Virus record (IMG/VR): IMGVR_UViG_2690316278_000008
From: a virus
Lineage: Duplodnaviria; Heunggongvirae; Uroviricota; Caudoviricetes
Length of the DNA stretch: 21,852 nt
Strand: one strand, 5' to 3'
Under the pieces are notes generated by a model. It was not told the DNA's origin. It did no database searches and saw only the letters and a program-made list of their open reading frames with translations. This document shows, one piece after another, positions 10,944 through 17,965 of this stretch. Position 1 is the stretch's first letter, and the number at the start of each line of letters is the position of its first letter. Position numbers and translations under genes: made by a program.

Positions 10944-11989
10944 TGAGCAGAAAAAATAAAAAAGTGCGCATGAGTTCACGCATTGATCTCGCTGATGCGC
11001 TCAGGAAAGAATCGTCGCTCAGTGCATTCACATTTGATGGTCCTTACCGCCTGACCGGGCATGACCTGCTGGACAATATGTACTGTGCTGATAACGGGCG
11101 GTGGTATGAAACCCCGGTGGACTGGTACGGTCTGGCAAGAGCTGCCCGGCAAACGTCCTGGCATCAGTCTGCGCTTTACTTTAAGCGCAATGTATTGCTC
11201 GGCTGCTATATTCCGCACCCGCTGCTTTCCCGGCAGGATTTCTCGGCGCTGGCGCTGGACTGGTTTGTGTTCGGTAACGCATTCCTTGAGCTTCGGAGCA
11301 ATATGCTCGGCGAACCGCTTAAATTACGGCACGCCCTGGCGAAATACATGCGACGCGGAAGCGATCTTGAATCATGGTGGTATGTGCAGGATGGCAAGGA
11401 TGCGTTTCAGTTTCGTCCTGGCAAAGTGTGCCACCTGATGAATCCGGATATTAACCAGGAAATCTACGGCATGCCGGAATATCTTGGCGCATTACTCTCG
11501 GCCAGCCTTTCTCATTCGGCGGACATGTTCAGAAAACTGTACTACGACAACGGATCCCACGCCGGGTGCATCATCTACATCGGTGCAGCGCAGGTAAACC
11601 GCGAAAGCATGGACTCCCTGAAAGAAACGCTACAGGGGGCACGTGGTGGTGGTGCGTTTAAAAACGTGCTCATTCATGCGCCCAACGGGGGCAAAGAGGG
11701 GGTGCAAATTTTGCCGTTCCAGCAGATCACCGCAAAGGATGAGTTCATGAATGTTAAGGCGGCATCCCGTGATGATGTGCTGGCTGCGCACCGCGTTCCG
11801 CCGCAACTGATGGGGGCGATGCCGGGCGAAAAAAGTGCGTTTGGTGATGTGGAGAAGGCCGCGCGGGTTTACGCAATTAACGAGCTGATGCCCGTCATGG
11901 AGGCCATGAAGCACATCAATGACTGGCTTGGCGAAGAGGTGATCCGCTTTAACCCTTACGCACTGTTAGACACCCAGCCCACATCCTGA
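10943..11989 (+). CDS. Q: Portal protein (P2 gpQ-like)
   Basis: 348 aa, fully unmasked, ATG 10943 preceded by GGAG: MSRKNKKVRMSSRIDLADALRKESSLSAFTFDGPYRLTGHDLLDNMYCADNGRWYETPVDWYGLARAARQTSWHQSALYFKRNVLLGCYIPH...; length and content match P2 portal (~344 aa). Confidence 0.9.
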   Translation: MSRKNKKVRMSSRIDLADALRKESSLSAFTFDGPYRLTGHDLLDNMYCADNGRWYETPVDWYGLARAARQTSWHQSALYFKRNVLLGCYIPHPLLSRQDFSALALDWFVFGNAFLELRSNMLGEPLKLRHALAKYMRRGSDLESWWYVQDGKDAFQFRPGKVCHLMNPDINQEIYGMPEYLGALLSASLSHSADMFRKLYYDNGSHAGCIIYIGAAQVNRESMDSLKETLQGARGGGAFKNVLIHAPNGGKEGVQILPFQQITAKDEFMNVKAASRDDVLAAHRVPPQLMGAMPGEKSAFGDVEKAARVYAINELMPVMEAMKHINDWLGEEVIRFNPYALLDTQPTS

Positions 11990-12326: not shown

Positions 12327-12460
12327 AAAAAACGCGTTTTTTTGTGCATGCACGGATCCTTGACGGATCCAGCCGCCACGCGGGCCGGAAGGGCAAAAAG
12401 TCGTTCAAAAAAATTGTGCAAATTTGTGCACTATTGTGCATTTATAAAATCAACTAAAAA
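12327..12460. other. Candidate cos/packaging-recognition region: phased TTGTGCA repeats, A6-CGCG-T7 palindrome, GC-rich block
   Basis: TTGTGCA at 12414-12420, 12424-12430 and 12434-12440 (exact 10-bp phasing) with a fourth copy at 12342-12348; palindromes aaaaaacgcgttttttt (12327-12343) and gtgcatgcac (12345-12354); direct repeat acggatcc (12352-12359, 12363-12370); GC-rich gccgccacgcgggccggaagggc (12372-12394). Lies between convergent Q and the accessory operon, where cos sits on the P2 map. No exact match to the remembered P2 19-nt cohesive end. Confidence 0.25.
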
Positions 12461-12680: not shown

Positions 12681-12920
12681 CTATTTACTCTTCTCGGCCC
12701 TCAAAATCATACGAGAACCATCATCCAGCTCCCAATTAATTTCACCGCCTTCTGCCATGACTAGATGCCAAACGAGTTGAGCGGCCTCGTTGGTTACATC
12801 GCGACCGCGATCATTTCCTACGCGGCGTTTTGTTCCGTCTCCTAAGTCACGCATTTTTGCCAATACGATGGTTTTTGATAGCGGTGAAAAACCAAGCTGT
12901 AGTCGTGCTGAATTACTCAC
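12681..12920 (-). CDS. Hypothetical protein (79 aa); second gene of accessory operon
   Basis: GTG 12920 overlaps the upstream gene's TGA (GTGA) and is preceded by GGGGG; an in-frame ATG 63 nt downstream is an alternative start. MSNSARLQLGFSPLSKTIVLAKMRDLGDGTKRRVGNDRGRDVTNEAAQLVWHLVMAEGGEINWELDDGSRMILRAEKSK. No recognisable motif. Confidence 0.5.
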   Translation of the reverse strand: MSNSARLQLGFSPLSKTIVLAKMRDLGDGTKRRVGNDRGRDVTNEAAQLVWHLVMAEGGEINWELDDGSRMILRAEKSK

Positions 12921-13501: not shown

Positions 13502-13813
13502 TCATTCAGGAAATAATGCCCGGATATTCCCTGCTATCTGACTGGTTATCTGTGCGGTTGGTACTGGCTGTGGCACGGGGCGTTCTGTCCTGGTTTGTGT
13601 CACCGATAACGCCTCATCGTCAGCCCATGCAGCCAGTCGGTAAGCCTCTGCTGGATTCATTTTCAGAAGTGCCAGCCCGGCCAGAAAAGCCACGCGTTGG
13701 CCGCTTTTGCGGGCTTCTGGTGTAAGGCTGCCCAGCCAGGCGCATGCTTCGCTTTCGTTCTTGACGGCCGCAGGCTTCAGATAGAAACTTATCCGTCTGG
13801 TTGGTGTCGTCAT
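13502..13813 (-). CDS. parR: ParR-like centromere-binding adaptor (type II partition, RHH family)
   Basis: Proposed start ATG 13813 (AAGGAG upstream, 7 nt after parM stop): MTTPTRRISFYLKPAAVKNESEACAWLGSLTPEARKSGQRVAFLAGLALLKMNPAEAYRLAAW...IAGNIRALFPE. Resembles plasmid R1 ParR (RRTIAFKLNP...RAALTAGLALY...RSLFPKE). The track's longer ORF from 13948 overlaps parM and is rejected. Confidence 0.6.
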   Translation of the reverse strand: MTTPTRRISFYLKPAAVKNESEACAWLGSLTPEARKSGQRVAFLAGLALLKMNPAEAYRLAAWADDEALSVTQTRTERPVPQPVPTAQITSQIAGNIRALFPE

Positions 13814-13817
13814 TGGT

Positions 13818-14777
13818 TTACTCCTTGTCCATTGCGTACAGCCCATTAACCAGAGCAAACTGTGGCACCCCGTCCGCGATGAAAGTCGCATTAACTCCGC
13901 AGGCTTCGCGGATAGCGGGTGCCACAATCTCCGCCCCTCCACCGACAACCATCACCCGCCCGTAACCCGAAAAACCCGCCAGCGCGCGGATCACGCGTTG
14001 TTTCAGTGTTTCTTCCTTTTCACGAATAACCGCCATCAGGCTGGCGTAATGCGCGTCATTGTGGATGTGCTGGCGCAGCCAGGCTTCATCATGGCGATGT
14101 TCGATAATGGTATTGGCGATGTGGTGACTGGTGCGCATACCGTTAGTGGCCATCACCGACAGTACGGCATCGGCCATCAGAGAAACGCCTACGTGTGGAT
14201 CGCAAAACACCTGGCTGATACCTGCCAGTTGCCCCTGAACCTTTGCCACATCCAGCGTGGTTCCGCCCAAATCCACAATCAGCAGGGATTCAAACGGACT
14301 CATGTCAGCCAGTGCCTTAAAGCCAGCCGGAATGGATTCAGGCATAACCCGCACGTTACGGATAGTGAATGCTTCGCCGTTCTGGTACTCCACCGGGCGC
14401 ATAACGTTCGCTTTTTTGCGGTTGATGTTGGCCATGTCCGGCTGTGCGTTTGTGTCGAAATACTCGCTCAGTGGCAGGGTGACAACCACATCCACCTCCT
14501 GTGGCGTGATGCCTGATTTGACCAGCGCGTGATGAATGGCAATGACATTTACATCGCTGTACTGGTATTGCGTGTCGGTTGTCTGGACAAAGCGATCGCT
14601 GACCGGATCAAAACCATAGCGCACGCCATCAAGCATGTAGTTCGCGGGCTGCATGCCACCGAACGGCGCAGACCATTCCGACTTGAAGCTGTTCGGGCTG
14701 ATGGCGTTGCGGCGTTCGCCGTTCTCAGTCCATGCCAGCTTGATGTTGGTGGAGCCGTCGTCGATACAAATTTTCAT
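13818..14777 (-). CDS. parM: ParM/StbA-like actin-type segregation ATPase (type II partition)
   Basis: 319 aa, fully unmasked, ATG 14777 preceded by AGGAA: MKICIDDGSTNIKLAWTENGERRNAISPNSFKSEWSAPFGGMQ...VNVIAIHHALVKSGITPQEVDVVVTLPLSEYFD...VMPESIPAGFKAL...LLIVDLGGTTLDVAKVQGQLAGISQVFCDPHVGVS...VMVVGGGAEIVAPAIRE...ALVNGLYAMDKE. Resembles plasmid R1 ParM (MLVFIDDGSTNIKLQW..., 320 aa), including the phosphate-binding DDGSTNIK and DLGGTTLD motifs. Confidence 0.85.
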   Translation of the reverse strand: MKICIDDGSTNIKLAWTENGERRNAISPNSFKSEWSAPFGGMQPANYMLDGVRYGFDPVSDRFVQTTDTQYQYSDVNVIAIHHALVKSGITPQEVDVVVTLPLSEYFDTNAQPDMANINRKKANVMRPVEYQNGEAFTIRNVRVMPESIPAGFKALADMSPFESLLIVDLGGTTLDVAKVQGQLAGISQVFCDPHVGVSLMADAVLSVMATNGMRTSHHIANTIIEHRHDEAWLRQHIHNDAHYASLMAVIREKEETLKQRVIRALAGFSGYGRVMVVGGGAEIVAPAIREACGVNATFIADGVPQFALVNGLYAMDKE

Positions 14778-14808
14778 GTCGCTTTTCCTTATGTTGATTA
14801 ATTAATCG

Positions 14809-14920
14809 TTTACGGGATTCTGAAATCCCGTTTTTGCCTGTTTTGTGCGCGCTTCATATATCGCTGCGCGTTTTTTGCTCATTTACGGGATTCGTGAGTC
14901 CCGTTTCTGTCTGTTTTTTG
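14809..14920. repeat. Two ~39-bp direct repeats, each with a hairpin-forming palindrome, upstream of parM (candidate parC centromere/operator)
   Basis: Repeat A 14809-14847 tttacgggattctgaaatcccgtttttgcctgttttgtg (perfect 8-bp palindrome acgggatt/aatcccgt, 14812-14831); repeat B 14882-14920 tttacgggattcgtgagtcccgtttctgtctgttttttg (6-bp arms, 14885-14904); about 33/39 identical. Repeat A begins 32 bp upstream of the parM ATG and overlaps a plausible promoter (TTCAGA ... TAATTA). Confidence 0.4.
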
Positions 14921-15028
14921 TTTCCACTGGTCAGGCCACCCCGCAGCAGGTCTGCTTTGCGGCGGGCGCGTTCAGTGGTTTCACTGATTCTCTGTGCGTG
15001 CTCTGCGTCGCGGATGGCGCGCAGCATG

Positions 15029-17965
15029 TCAGAAAGCACGGTAACGGGTGTTTTCATGGTGTTCTGGTCCTGCTGAAGTGTGGATGCCAGGCGTGNGTGC
15101 GGCGGCTTCAGGGTCTGATGCCCCCAGCTGTGTCAGATAGCTGGCGACCGGGTTATGGCGGATCTCCGTGCTGCTTACGCCATGATTACGGCTCAGGCGC
15201 TGCCAGAGCTGCGTGATTCGGCTGTCCGGGCGGGTATCCGGTTTGCGTACAATTTCAAATCCCTGCGGTGCAATGATGCTGCCGTCAACGTACAGACTGC
15301 CGCCCCGTAACAGGTGCTGCATCTGTTGTTCACCGATATGCAGGCCGAGAGATTCAGCAGACTCCCGCCATTCTTTAGCGAGTAATTCGTGGTTATCAGG
15401 CAAAGGCCGCTGCTGTTTGCGGCTCTGTGTCCAGCTCTGCATTTCATCACTGCTGTTTTTTGCCTGTTTGTCACGAAGCGAACGCATCAGCGCCCGGCGT
15501 TCGTGCCGTTTCAGTGAGCGCATCCATTCATCCACATCAACGCCGTCAGGGAGCTGCGGCCACGGTGCTGGCCGTTCTTCCGGCTGTTCTGTCCCGTTGT
15601 TGTCCGTTTCCTGTACACGGGGACAGTTATTGCCACGAGTCCAAGGGGCGGCAGGGCCGCCCTGAAGGTCAAAACCATTTTCGCGGGCGCTGTCTTCCGC
15701 TTCCGGTTTGCGTCTTACCAGCNNNNNNNNNNNNNNNNNNNNNNNNNNNNNNNNNNNNNNNNNNNNNNNNNNNNNNNNNNNNNNNNNNNNNNNNNNNNNN
15801 NNNNNNNNNNNNNNNNNNNNNNNNNNNNNNNNNNNNNNNNNNNNNNNNNNNNNNNNNNNNNNNNNNNNNNNNNNNNNNNNNNNNNNNNNNNNNNNNNNNN
15901 NNNNNNNNNNNNNNNNNNNNNNNNNNNNNNNNNNNNNNNNNNNNNNNNNNNNNNNNNNNNNNNNNNNNNNNNNNNNNNNNNNNNNNNNNNNNNNNNNNNN
16001 NNNNNNNNNNNNNNNNNNNNNNNNNNNNNNNNNNNNNNNNNNNNNNNNNNNNNNNNNNNNNNNNNNNNNNNNNNNNNNNNNNNNNNNNNNNNNNNNNNNN
16101 NNNNNNNNNNNNNNNCTTCAGCCGTTGCGGGCCTTCCGGGTTGCGTGCCATCTGGCTGGCAAGGCGGCGCAGTTCACGCCATACCTGGCGGGAGGGGATG
16201 CCAAAGAACTGGAACTGGCGGACCCGGTGAAGGCGCGCCCAGCCGATGGCGCGTTCCACGCTCTCGGCCATTGATTTTCCGGTTTCGTGGTCAACGCGTG
16301 GCTTGCCCGTTTTCGGGTCGATGCCATCCACGGCGCGGCTGTCCAGGTTTTTCCCGATGTAGGTGGCGATGTAGCTGGTTGGCGTGCCTTTTGAGCCGTC
16401 TACATACTCCGCCTTAAAGCGCGGAGTTATGTCATCGCCCAGCTCGTGACGATCTTCCTGAATGGCAATATCGCGGGTGTGGGACACAATGGTGTCGATT
16501 TCTTCCGGATGAGCAAAGACCATCATATGCCAGTGCACGGTGCCGTCATGGTGAGGCTCCGCCGTGCGGATGCCATACCAGCGCAGGCCGTCGCGGTTCA
16601 GTTTTTTGCGGACCGTCGCAAAAAACGTGTTAACCAGGTAATCGCTGGAGTCGCGCATTGTGGCCCCGTTCCATTTGGGATTCGGATGACCGTTCTCCGT
16701 TGTGGCGTGGTATTTTGACGGGCAGGTGACAGTCAGAAACACCGCTTTGTCGCCACGGGCTTCGGCCAGAAGTTCCAGCCCCTTCATGGTGGCCATCATT
16801 TCTGCCTTACGGTGAACCGGGTTACTTACTCCCGCGTAATACACCGTCTCGAGATCAATCGTGAACCCGTCTTCATTTTCCAGCATGAAACTTTTCAGGA
16901 AATCGCGTGTTTTCTCGCGCTGTGCGCGAAACTCGCTTAACGCGTCCTGGCTCAGATAGGGCGATGTTTTTCTGGAAACCAGACAGGCGGCGCGAAGTTG
17001 TTCTTCTCTCCACTCGCAACGTAACAGCCACAGTTTGCGTTTCCANNNNNNNNNNNNNNNNNNNNNNNNNNNNNNNNNNNNNNNNNNNNNNNNNNNNNNN
17101 NNNNNNNNNNNNNNNNNNNNNNNNNNNNNNNNNNNNNNNNNNNNNNNNNNNNNNNNNNNNNNNNNNNNNNNNNNNNNNNNNNNNNNNNNNNNNNNNNNNN
17201 NNNNNNNNNNNNNNNNNNNNNNNNNNNNNNNNNNNNTGTAACGCCATGCGGGCCAGCATCTGATACGCCTTCAGCGTTACATCCATGNNNNNNNNNNNNN
17301 NNNNNNNNNNNNNNNNNNNNNNNNNNNNNNNNNNNNNNNNNNNNNNNNNNNNNNNNNNNNNNNNNNNNNNNNNNNNNNNNNNNNNNNNNNNNNNNNNNNN
17401 NNNNNNNNNNNNNNNNNNNNNNNNNNNNNNNNNNNNNNNNNNNNNNNNNNNNNNNNNNNNNNNNNNNNNNNNNNNNNNNNNNNNNNNNNNNNNNNNNNNN
17501 NNNNNNNNNNNNNNNNNNNNNNNNNNNNNNNNNNNNNNNNNNNNNNNNNNNNNNNNNNNNNNNNNNNNNNNNNNNNNNNNNNNNNNNNNNNNNNNNNNNN
17601 NNNNNNNNNNNNNNNNNNNNNNNNNNNNNNNNNNNNNGGCGAATAAGCGGATCGCGCAGATAGGACGGCAGCAGGCGCAGCGAGGCCATGGCTTCATCCA
17701 CCGCGCCGCGTGCCTGTTTTCTGGCGTCTCCTGCCAGTGTGATGGTTTTGTCCTGTTTTTCCTGTGCGTCCAGGCTTTTATTAATCAGGTTGCCCAGTGG
17801 CGTGGCGGAGAACGCCGCATCAGCCATTTCCTGGCGGCGCTCGTTCTCTGCCCGGTGGGCATCCAGCCAGGAGGAAAGCGCGGATTCAGGAGCGGGGATC
17901 CCCGTTCCTTCACGCCCCACTGCGTGGCGCGGTTGTTGCCAGTCCCTGATGTACTCTGCCGTCAT
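15029..17965 (-). CDS. A: Replication initiation endonuclease, P2 gpA-like (HUH rolling-circle initiator); interior partly masked
   Basis: ATG 17965. Block 16116-17045 translates ...LRWYGIRTAEPHHDGTVHWHMMVFAHPEEIDTIVSHTRDIAIQED...SYIATYIGKNLD..., containing the HUH motif (HWHMMVF) of P2 A-type initiators. After mask 15723-16115 one frame stays open from 15722 to TGA 15031-15029, so the four track ORFs in this interval are treated as one gene broken by non-frame-preserving masks. Nominal span is longer than P2 A (~761 aa); length is uncertain. Single n at 15096. Confidence 0.75.

What the first reader, a model, noticed from the sequence alone, without database searches (positions are those of the whole stretch)
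14809..14920. Two ~39-bp direct repeats with palindromic cores upstream of parM: centromere/operator or tandem terminators
Repeat A (14809-14847) and repeat B (14882-14920) are about 85% identical, each with a palindrome followed by a T-rich run on the plus strand. Their position over the putative parM promoter fits ParR-bound parC iterons with autoregulation. Read on the plus strand they also look like tandem intrinsic terminators, yet no plus-strand gene runs into them. A minus-strand ORF (14854-15057, 67 aa) reads through repeat B and overlaps the end of gene A, so a small gene cannot be excluded.
Basis: seen in the sequence. Interest (0 to 1): 0.5.

Follow-up and report, generated by a model that had tools for sequence, protein, structure and literature searches.

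The report
Probable partition centromere in P2-like prophage
The two repeats are most likely the DNA sites where a phage-borne plasmid-type segregation machine (ParM/ParR) grips the phage genome: an expected part of such a system, but with an unusual palindromic layout, and not a small gene.

Summary
There are two 42-nt direct repeats (14806-14847 and 14879-14920), 81% identical and 73 bp apart. Each holds a 20-bp palindrome that occurs nowhere else in the window or in the whole phage P88 genome.

The window is a P88-like (Xuanwuvirus, P2-like) prophage. On the minus strand the order is replication gene A, then parM, then parR. The "67-aa ORF" is only the tail of gene A, which reads into repeat B.

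The evidence is comparative:
- The repeats travel with parMR across a recombination junction.
- They survive in a Hafnia relative, where gene A stops inside palindrome B.
- The spacing is 73 bp in 72 of 75 haplotypes.
- The GGGA/AATCC cores are invariant, while the palindrome centres and the spacer vary.
- A-tracts are helically phased.
- The overlapped gene A codons show no synonymous bias.

The best reading (about 0.72) is a parC-type ParR-binding centromere, and possibly an operator. It is built from two palindrome-bearing modules instead of R1-style 11-bp iterons. No promoter could be shown. Plus-strand terminators or mRNA hairpins are not excluded. No binding was tested. This is a new variant of a known kind, of modest interest.

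The parts
14879..14920 (-). Repeat/module B (42 nt). It lies inside the last 21 codons of replication gene A.
   Evidence: The junction of homology with the variant phage L043 falls at 14918, at the outer edge of this repeat.
14885..14904 (.). Palindrome B, ACGGGAyTCNNNGAATCCCGT. This is a proposed ParR-binding core.
   Evidence: GGGA (14902-14899) and AATCCC (14892-14887) are invariant or nearly so in 69 haplotypes, while the centre is variable.
14848..14878 (-). Spacer between the modules. It contains the stop codon of gene A (TGA, 14856-14854). If a parM promoter exists, it would be expected here.
   Evidence: The stretch 14848-14869 is as variable as parM third codon positions. No promoter-like site was found.
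14806..14847 (-). Repeat/module A (42 nt), in the 76-bp gene A/parM intergenic region.
14812..14831 (.). Palindrome A, ACGGGATTTCAGAATCCCGT on the minus strand. This is a proposed ParR-binding core.
14798..14805 (.). TTAATTAA, invariant in 69 haplotypes, between palindrome A and the parM ribosome-binding site. Its role is unknown.
14786..14790 (-). AAGGA ribosome-binding site of parM.
   Evidence: Read from the sequence. It is invariant.
13818..14777 (-). parM, an actin-like segregation ATPase of 319 aa.
   Evidence: Pfam PF06406 at 2.7e-82 and PF21523 at 1.3e-68. It is 53% identical to IncL/M ParM and 47% to R1 ParM.
13502..13813 (-). parR, the centromere-binding adaptor of 103 aa, R1 ParR/StbB family.
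   Evidence: PF10784 at 5e-23, scored on the longer ORF. It is 31% identical to the R1 ParR N-terminus. A family profile hits the pB171 ParR structure 2JD3 at E=0.002. Start as annotated in P88.
14854..15092 (-).
   Evidence: The P88 annotation gives a single 940-aa CDS. The 4-nt insertion GTGN at 15093-15096 breaks the frame in this window.
15456..15469 (-). Third partial copy, AAACAGGCAAAAAA, of the A-rich arm, with no palindrome next to it. It is unexplained and may not belong to the element.
   Evidence: 3 matches against 0.03 expected. It sits at the other junction of the segment replaced in L043 and is not conserved there.

Best explanation
The two 42-nt modules together form the cis-acting centromere (parC equivalent) of a type II ParM/ParR partition cassette. 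The cassette is carried in the early operon of a P88-like (P2-like) prophage. The following steps are inferred, not shown. ParR dimers recognise the GGGAT...ATCCC palindromes and the phased A-tract/AAAC motifs next to them. The two modules lie on the same face of the helix, since 73 bp is 7.0 turns. Together with intrinsically bent A-tract DNA they let ParR assemble one wrapped nucleoprotein complex, which captures the growing ends of ParM filaments so that phage DNA copies are pushed apart. If a weak promoter lies in the 31-bp spacer, the same complex would also repress parMR. Module B happens to lie in the last codons of gene A. The upstream gene simply reads into the site until it meets a stop.
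For: The genes are right: parM and an R1/pB171-type parR lie immediately downstream. In R1, IncL/M and about 40 other ParM relatives, the repeated cis site sits in exactly this position.

The repeats belong to the parMR module and not to gene A. In L043 the 3' part of gene A is replaced, and a separate 155-aa ORF appears. Homology resumes at 14918, the edge of repeat B.

In a Hafnia relative (ParR 74% identical, ParM 94%), gene A stops inside palindrome B. Both modules are still kept, as GGGATTCATGAATCCC and GGGATTTGAAAATCCC, with 73 bp between repeat starts.

Spacing is 73 bp in 72 of 75 two-palindrome haplotypes.

The palindrome cores are invariant, while their centres and the spacer vary as freely as synonymous sites. 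The gene A codons that overlap the site show no synonymous bias: segregating columns are 0.50 at position 3 against 0.40 at positions 1 and 2, whereas parM gives 0.52 against 0.04-0.07.

Both hairpins share one sequence in E. coli and in Hafnia. That fits one sequence-specific protein better than structure alone.

AAAC/A-tract motifs occur at offsets 0, 10, 32, 43, 73, 83 and 105 bp, with a periodicity peak at 10.5 bp (p=0.009). This resembles the A-rich 11-bp iterons of R1.

The site is unique in the whole P88 genome.

The ParR N-terminal DNA-binding part is invariant across variants that share the repeats. A sister clade of P2-like phages in Serratia has a diverged ParR and different repeats in the same position.
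Against: No binding, stabilisation or incompatibility data exist, and none were found in the literature searches. The layout differs from every characterised parC I could compare: two composite palindromic modules instead of 2x5 direct 11-bp iterons. No sigma-70 promoter was detected between the modules, so the operator role is unsupported. On the + strand the sites also satisfy a terminator scan, and the T-tails are conserved. One natural haplotype (L206) carries a single hybrid module, so two copies may not be essential. These phages are almost always integrated, with 1439 chromosomal places against 2 on plasmids, so the need for a centromere is not obvious.
Confidence: 0.72

Rival explanations
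1. The repeats are tandem Rho-independent terminators acting on the + strand. They would stop antisense transcription that enters from the parM side before it runs into replication gene A.
For: Both hairpins pass the terminator scan on the + strand only. Stems fold at -10.2 and -11.4 kcal/mol. The T-rich tails pass the criterion in 54 of 69 haplotypes for A and 69 of 69 for B.
Against: No + strand gene or promoter-like site lies upstream. The nearest + strand gene (the portal gene) ends at 11989, about 2.8 kb away. The tail of B, TTCTGTCTG, is a poor U-tract. Terminators have no need for identical stem sequences, a fixed 73-bp register or helically phased A-tracts. The T-run is simply the complement of A-rich motifs, like those that form the R1 iterons.
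Confidence: 0.1
2. The repeats are stem-loops in the sense (minus-strand) early mRNA. They would flank an RNase processing site, protecting the 3' end of the gene A message and the 5' end of the parMR message, or tuning parM translation.
For: The hairpins fold equally well in the sense RNA, at -9.0 and -11.6 kcal/mol with z-scores of -3.2 and -3.4. They flank an AU-containing spacer. In hairpin A the common variants keep pairing as G-U on the minus strand, with 98.7% of cells paired.
Against: Hairpin B shows the opposite strand preference: 93.8% paired on the minus strand against 99.5% on the plus strand. There are no compensatory double changes at all. In Hafnia the outer C-G pair is lost in both hairpins while the GGGATT/AATCCC sequence is kept. 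There is no Rfam match. The hairpin does not occlude the ribosome-binding site.
Confidence: 0.08
3. The repeat reflects a small protein-coding gene (ORF 14854-15057), or a duplicated coding segment.
For: An ATG-initiated 67-aa ORF exists in this window and reads through repeat B.
Against: It is the in-frame tail of gene A in P88. The apparent separate start is created by the GTGN insertion. The stop position changes between relatives: in Hafnia it lies inside the palindrome, in L043 a different ORF reads into the repeat, and in L206 the stop falls in TTAATTAA. There is no synonymous bias and no Pfam hit. Repeat A is non-coding.
Confidence: 0.02
4. The repeats are a functionless leftover of a local duplication or a recombination scar at a module boundary.
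For: Module junctions fall at the edge of repeat B. One natural deletion between the repeats exists (L206).
Against: Both copies are retained with the same spacing in E. coli, Salmonella, E. albertii and Hafnia. The cores are invariant while neighbouring bases vary.
Confidence: 0.06

Closest known systems
parC of plasmid R1/NR1 (type II ParMRC; Dam and Gerdes 1994, cited from memory; sequence read here in L086)
   Same: The cis site lies directly upstream of parM, with parR next. The proteins are homologous: ParM is 47% identical and the ParR N-terminus 31%. There are two repeat clusters separated by a spacer, with A-rich motifs phased at about one helical turn on the parM sense strand.
   Different: R1 has 5+5 direct 11-bp iterons (AAAACAAACCC-like), a register of 94 bp, and a clear TTGACA promoter between them. 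Here there are two 42-nt modules, each with a 20-bp palindrome, 73 bp apart, with no recognisable promoter, and one module lies inside the upstream gene.
parMR/parC of IncL/M plasmids (pOXA-48-like; L003)
   Same: Among the plasmid hits listed, IncL/M ParM was the nearest to the phage gene at DNA level, at 66%; it is 53% identical in protein. Its two iteron clusters also repeat with a 73-bp register.
   Different: It has T-rich direct iterons (GTATTTTTCT) flanking a TTTACA...TAATAAT promoter. Its ParR is 147 aa and cannot be aligned to the phage ParR by BLASTP.
pB171 par2 ParR (PDB 2JD3, 'StbB protein')
   Same: It is the only solved structure hit by the phage ParR family profile, at E=0.002 over residues 9-73. 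From memory, this is a ribbon-helix-helix centromere binder.
   Different: The pB171 centromeres are arrays of short direct repeats (from memory, not checked here). The sequence similarity is weak.
AlpAC/alpS of the Corynebacterium glutamicum prophage CGP3 (PMC5539076)
   Same: An integrated prophage encodes an actin-like filament former, a DNA-binding adaptor and repeated adaptor sites (alpS, TTAAnnG) in the promoter region of its own operon. The system is used for phage DNA transport and efficient replication rather than for plasmid inheritance.
   Different: The proteins are not homologous to R1-type ParR, and the host phylum and the repeats differ. The analogy to function in P88-like phages is my inference.
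Sister clade of P2-like prophages in Serratia (L094, L144-L146)
   Same: The gene order is the same, gene A then parM then parR (PF05840, PF10784). The ParR has the same ISFYLKP strand. Sites rich in A-tract plus CGGGA lie upstream of parM.
   Different: The repeats form a long inverted repeat (GGGAACGAnAnAGAAAAAT arms about 30 nt apart) plus GCCGTTTAAACGGC. They are not two direct palindrome-bearing modules.

Membership tests
Type II (ParMRC) partition locus | An actin-like ATPase ParM is encoded next to the site. | tested here: met
   PF06406 at 2.7e-82 and PF21523 at 1.3e-68, both full length.
Type II (ParMRC) partition locus | A ParR adaptor of the R1/pB171 (StbB) family is encoded directly after parM. 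| tested here: met
   PF10784 at 5e-23. It is 31% identical to the R1 ParR N-terminus, E=1e-7. A family profile hits 2JD3 at E=0.002.
Type II (ParMRC) partition locus | ParR has the ribbon-helix-helix fold. | tested here: inconclusive
   The AlphaFold2 monomer model has mean pLDDT 54, with two helices after a disordered N-terminus. This quality is too low for a fold search. The fold normally forms only in the dimer.
parC centromere (R1 type) | Repeated sequences lie immediately upstream of parM and are inherited with parMR. | tested here: met
parC centromere (R1 type) | There are arrays of about 10 direct 11-bp iterons in two clusters. | tested here: not met
   There are only two 42-nt modules with palindromes. 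Seven helically phased AAAC motifs could be degenerate iterons, but they do not form an R1-like array.
parC centromere (R1 type) | The parM promoter is embedded between the repeat clusters and is repressed by ParR. | tested here: not met
   No site with 9 or more matches out of 12 lies in or near 14778-14930, in the window or in P88. By eye, the Hafnia spacer has TGAACA-16-TATAAG. Repression cannot be tested here.
parC centromere (R1 type) | ParR binds specifically, and the site confers plasmid stabilisation and incompatibility. | not testable with these tools
   This needs EMSA or footprinting and plasmid-loss assays.
Intrinsic terminator | A G+C-rich hairpin is followed by a U-tract. | tested here: met
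   Met on the + strand only.
Intrinsic terminator | The hairpin lies at the end of a transcription unit on the same strand. | tested here: not met
   No + strand gene ends there. The nearest ends at 11989.
Small protein-coding gene | An independent, conserved reading frame shows synonymous-biased substitution. | tested here: not met
   The ORF is in frame with gene A in P88. The stop position is variable. Variation at codon position 3 against positions 1 and 2 is 0.50 against 0.40.
Known RNA family (Rfam 15) | A match to a curated covariance model. | tested here: not met
   The only matches (E=1.4 and 6.1) lie outside the repeats and far below their gathering scores.

The most novel reading that the evidence does not exclude
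An integrating P2-like phage family uses a plasmid-type ParMRC machine during replication or establishment, to move phage genomes rather than to maintain a plasmid. This parallels AlpAC/alpS of the Corynebacterium prophage CGP3. The family is present in 1302 of 5426 complete E. coli genomes. Its centromere has a non-canonical, palindrome-based two-module design that is partly embedded in the 3' end of the rolling-circle initiator gene A.
Probability: 0.3. Interest if true: 0.6.

Novelty: new variant of a known kind. Interest (0 to 1): 0.35.

Why it matters
Every ParMR system needs a centromere, so finding one upstream of parM is expected. Three things are less ordinary:
- The layout consists of two palindromic 42-nt modules instead of iteron arrays.
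- One module overlaps the end of the replication gene.
- The carrier is an integrating P2-like prophage found in about a quarter of complete E. coli genomes, almost always on the chromosome.

If ParR binds here, this gives a compact, testable centromere for asking why an integrating phage keeps a plasmid partition machine. It also raises the question of whether chromosomal copies of such a centromere, up to three per genome, have any effect on the host.

Tried and rejected
- **ParR against the PDB, single sequence:** no hit. Only the family profile reached 2JD3.
- **AlphaFold2 of monomeric ParR:** pLDDT 54. I made no fold search, because matches to such a model would be meaningless.
- **BLASTP of phage ParR against IncL/M ParR:** no alignment.
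- **Rfam:** nothing relevant.
- **Promoter scans:** nothing at the site. My by-eye candidates (TGAGCA-15-TATATG, TTCAGA-16-ATTAAT) are weak and not conserved between alleles, so I dropped them.
- **Strand test of hairpin pairing:** hairpin A favours the minus strand and hairpin B the plus strand, with no compensatory changes, so it does not discriminate.
- **U-tract conservation:** this did not discriminate against the terminator reading.
- **P2-type replication origin:** considered, then rejected because the site is inherited with parMR and not with gene A, and because copy A lies outside gene A.
- **Ogr/delta late-promoter dyads, Cox boxes and an IHF site:** considered from memory. The sequences do not fit, and I ran no test.
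- **P0029 contig look-up:** gave no upstream sequence.
- **Literature searches:** found no description of the P88 parMR cis site.

Full report
**What is there.** The repeat finder gives one family of two 42-nt direct copies, 14806-14847 and 14879-14920. They match at 34 of 42 positions and start 73 bp apart. Each contains a 20-bp palindrome, at 14812-14831 and 14885-14904. A degenerate pattern with up to three mismatches finds only these two sites in the window, against 0.12 expected and none of 100 shuffles reaching the count. Only the same two sites appear in the complete 35.8-kb genome of phage P88. On the + strand both pass a hairpin-plus-T-run scan. The hairpins fold at -9 to -11.6 kcal/mol on either strand.

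**Context.** The region is 95-99% identical to phage P88 and 13 other Xuanwuvirus (P2-like, Peduoviridae) records. The P88 genome runs int, C repressor, then cox and an early operon that ends with replication endonuclease A, parM, parR and a few small genes. This operon converges on the portal gene. In the window these genes are on the minus strand:
- parM is at 13818-14777 (PF06406 at 2.7e-82, PF21523 at 1.3e-68).
- parR is at 13502-13813 (PF10784 at 5e-23).

The ParR N-terminus is 31% identical to R1 ParR. A profile of the phage ParR family hits the pB171 ParR structure 2JD3 at E=0.002. The window file contains long masked runs of N, and a 4-nt insertion (GTGN, 15093-15096) relative to P88.

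**The 67-aa ORF.** In P88 and its relatives, gene A is one 940-aa CDS whose stop is the TGA at 14856-14854. The ORF 14854-15057 is its C-terminal tail. It looks separate here only because of the GTGN insertion. Repeat B thus lies in the last 21 codons of gene A, and repeat A lies in the 76-bp A/parM intergenic region.

**Does the repeat belong to gene A or to parMR?** I collected 80 IMG/VR loci, genome loci and plasmid-borne copies. Three natural variants bear on the question.
- In L043 the 3' part of gene A is replaced. A ends early (783 aa) and a separate 155-aa ORF follows. High identity to the window stops at 15450 and resumes at 14918, the outer edge of repeat B. The unrelated ORF therefore acquires the same last residues...TNPVNEQKTRSDI*.
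- In a Hafnia MAG (ParR 74% identical, ParM 94%), gene A stops at a TGA in the centre of palindrome B. Both modules are nevertheless present, as GGGATTCATGAATCCC and GGGATTTGAAAATCCC, with 73 bp between repeat starts.
- In L206 a recombination between the two repeats has left a single hybrid module.

Across 75 distinct haplotypes with two palindromes, the spacing is 73 bp in 72 and 71-74 in the rest. The repeat therefore travels with parMR, and the upstream gene merely reads into it.

**Pattern of constraint.** The figures come from 69 distinct haplotypes.
- The cores GGGA and AATCC(C) are invariant or nearly so.
- The four central bases of each palindrome, and the spacer 14848-14869, vary as much as parM third codon positions. 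The fraction of columns with a minor allele in at least two haplotypes is 0.50-0.55, against 0.29 for parM third positions.
- The A-rich arm next to palindrome B and the stretch 14870-14884 are strongly conserved. The arm next to palindrome A is only slightly less variable than parM third positions.
- Within the 21 gene A codons that overlap the site, third positions are no more variable than first and second positions (0.50 against 0.40). In parM the contrast is 0.52 against 0.04-0.07.

**Is it RNA structure?** All changes in the stems are one-sided transitions, and there are no compensatory pairs. Hairpin A keeps pairing better on the minus strand (98.7% against 92.8% of cells). Hairpin B keeps it better on the plus strand (99.5% against 93.8%). 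In Hafnia the outer C-G pair is lost in both hairpins, while the GGGATT/AATCCC sequence is kept. Rfam has nothing. Two hairpins that keep the same sequence in two genera point to a sequence-specific DNA-binding protein rather than to structure alone.

**Comparison with characterised and related centromeres.** I read R1 parC in L086. It has 5+5 direct 11-bp A-rich iterons on the parM sense strand, flanking a promoter that contains TTGACA, with a 94-bp register. IncL/M plasmids carry a parM 66% identical to the phage gene at DNA level. They have T-rich direct iterons around TTTACA...TAATAAT, with a 73-bp register. About 40 other enterobacterial relatives show the same classic design.

The phage region shares several of these features:
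- the position directly upstream of parM;
- the two-cluster layout;
- A-tract motifs in helical phase, with AAAC at 0, 10, 32, 43, 73, 83 and 105 bp, and a periodicity peak at 10.5 bp (p=0.009 against dinucleotide shuffles).

It differs in having two composite modules with 20-bp palindromes, and in lacking a recognisable promoter between them.

A sister clade of P2-like prophages in Serratia has the same gene A, parM, parR order and a ParR with the same ISFYLKP strand. It carries yet another arrangement, a long inverted repeat plus GCCGTTTAAACGGC, also with AAAACGGGA motifs. So the repeat type changes as ParR diverges, as expected for a coevolving protein-site pair. This comparison rests on few lineages.

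**Most likely mechanism (inferred).** ParR dimers bind the palindromes and adjacent phased motifs of both modules, which lie on one face of the helix (73 bp is 7.0 turns). They bend the DNA into a single complex that caps ParM filaments. If a weak promoter exists in the spacer, it would be repressed at the same time. Otherwise parMR is simply read from the early promoter together with gene A. I put this at about 0.72. The gene content, position, co-inheritance and constraint pattern are shown. Binding, filament capture and any regulation are inferred.

**Rivals.**
- *Plus-strand terminators (0.10).* The form is there and the T-tails are conserved. However, no + strand unit ends there, and the fixed register and shared sequence are not explained.
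- *Sense-mRNA hairpins for processing or stability (0.08).* These are possible, but there is no covariation and the strand signals conflict.
- *Leftover duplication (0.06).* This is contradicted by retention across genera.
- *Small gene (0.02).* Rejected, as described above.

**Distribution and biology.** The 153-bp site occurs in 1302 of 5426 complete E. coli genomes. There are 1439 places on chromosomes and 2 on plasmids, with up to 3 per genome. Among GenBank phages, ParM relatives occur only in this Xuanwuvirus group and in the plasmid-prophage D6. One 34,461-bp circular 'plasmid' record appears, on the 13.5 kb examined, to be a P88-like phage genome. I found no paper describing this cis site. 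The P88 and Citrobacter phiSM papers only list the partition genes. A functional precedent for an actin-like segregation system in an integrated prophage is AlpAC/alpS of CGP3, used for phage DNA transport and replication. Whether P88-like phages use ParMR in the same way is open.

**Verdict.** The centromere reading is the best supported, while autoregulation is unproven and the small gene is refuted. This is a new architectural variant of a known kind of element, of modest interest.

Noticed in passing
window 15093-15096 and N runs (e.g. 15723-16115, 17046-17236, 17288-17637): The window carries 4793 N in long masked runs. It also has a 4-nt insertion, GTGN, relative to P88 that breaks the gene A frame. 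The apparent fragmentation of gene A into several ORFs is therefore largely an artefact.
   Followed up: partly
L043 2075-2860, corresponding to window 15450-14918: This is a variant phage in which the 3' end of gene A is replaced. Gene A ends at 783 aa, and a separate 155-aa ORF follows with CxxC...CxxC motifs (CRQCG...CCRC) and no Pfam hit. That ORF reads into repeat B.
   Followed up: partly
window 15456-15469: A third copy of the A-rich arm, AAACAGGCAAAAAA, lies inside gene A (3 matches against 0.03 expected). It has no palindrome next to it. It sits at the left junction of the segment replaced in L043 and is not conserved there.
   Followed up: partly
L206, 200 nt upstream of parM: This natural haplotype has a single hybrid module. 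The 73 bp between the repeats is deleted, apparently by recombination between them. Gene A would then stop in TTAATTAA.
   Followed up: no
window 13502-13813 versus L085 2883-3197: ParR exists in at least two allelic forms. They share the first 55 or so residues and the C-terminal NI(R/Q)xLFPE motif, but differ in the linker (52% identity overall). The parM gene and the repeats are the same in both.
   Followed up: partly
E. coli complete genomes (collection search): The 153-bp site is present in 1302 of 5426 genomes, with 1439 chromosomal places against 2 on plasmids, and up to 3 copies per genome. P88-like prophages are also found integrated in large IncC and other plasmids.
   Followed up: partly
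L004 (NZ_CP148288.1, 34,461 bp, circular): This record is deposited as a non-mobilizable plasmid. On the 13.5 kb examined, it appears to be a P88-like phage genome. It could be an episomal state or assembled induced phage DNA.
   Followed up: no
L208 (P88) 34928-35068: P88 is annotated with a hok/gef-family (MokW-like) host-killing gene. This is a second plasmid-maintenance-type module in an integrating phage. I did not check whether it lies in this window.
   Followed up: no
window 12681-12920 (-) and 12416-12431 (-): Downstream of parR there is a DUF7446 ORF (9.7e-17). There is also a minus-strand terminator-like hairpin, GTGCACAAATTTGCAC followed by AATTTTTTTG, that could end the early/parMR transcript. 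The cargo between parR and the portal gene differs between relatives.
   Followed up: no
L094, L144-L146, upstream of parM: Serratia-type P2-like prophages also carry gene A, parM and parR. Their upstream repeats differ: a 17-19-nt inverted repeat GGGAACGAnAnAGAAAAAT, GCCGTTTAAACGGC, and the direct repeat ATTTCATGACC.
   Followed up: partly
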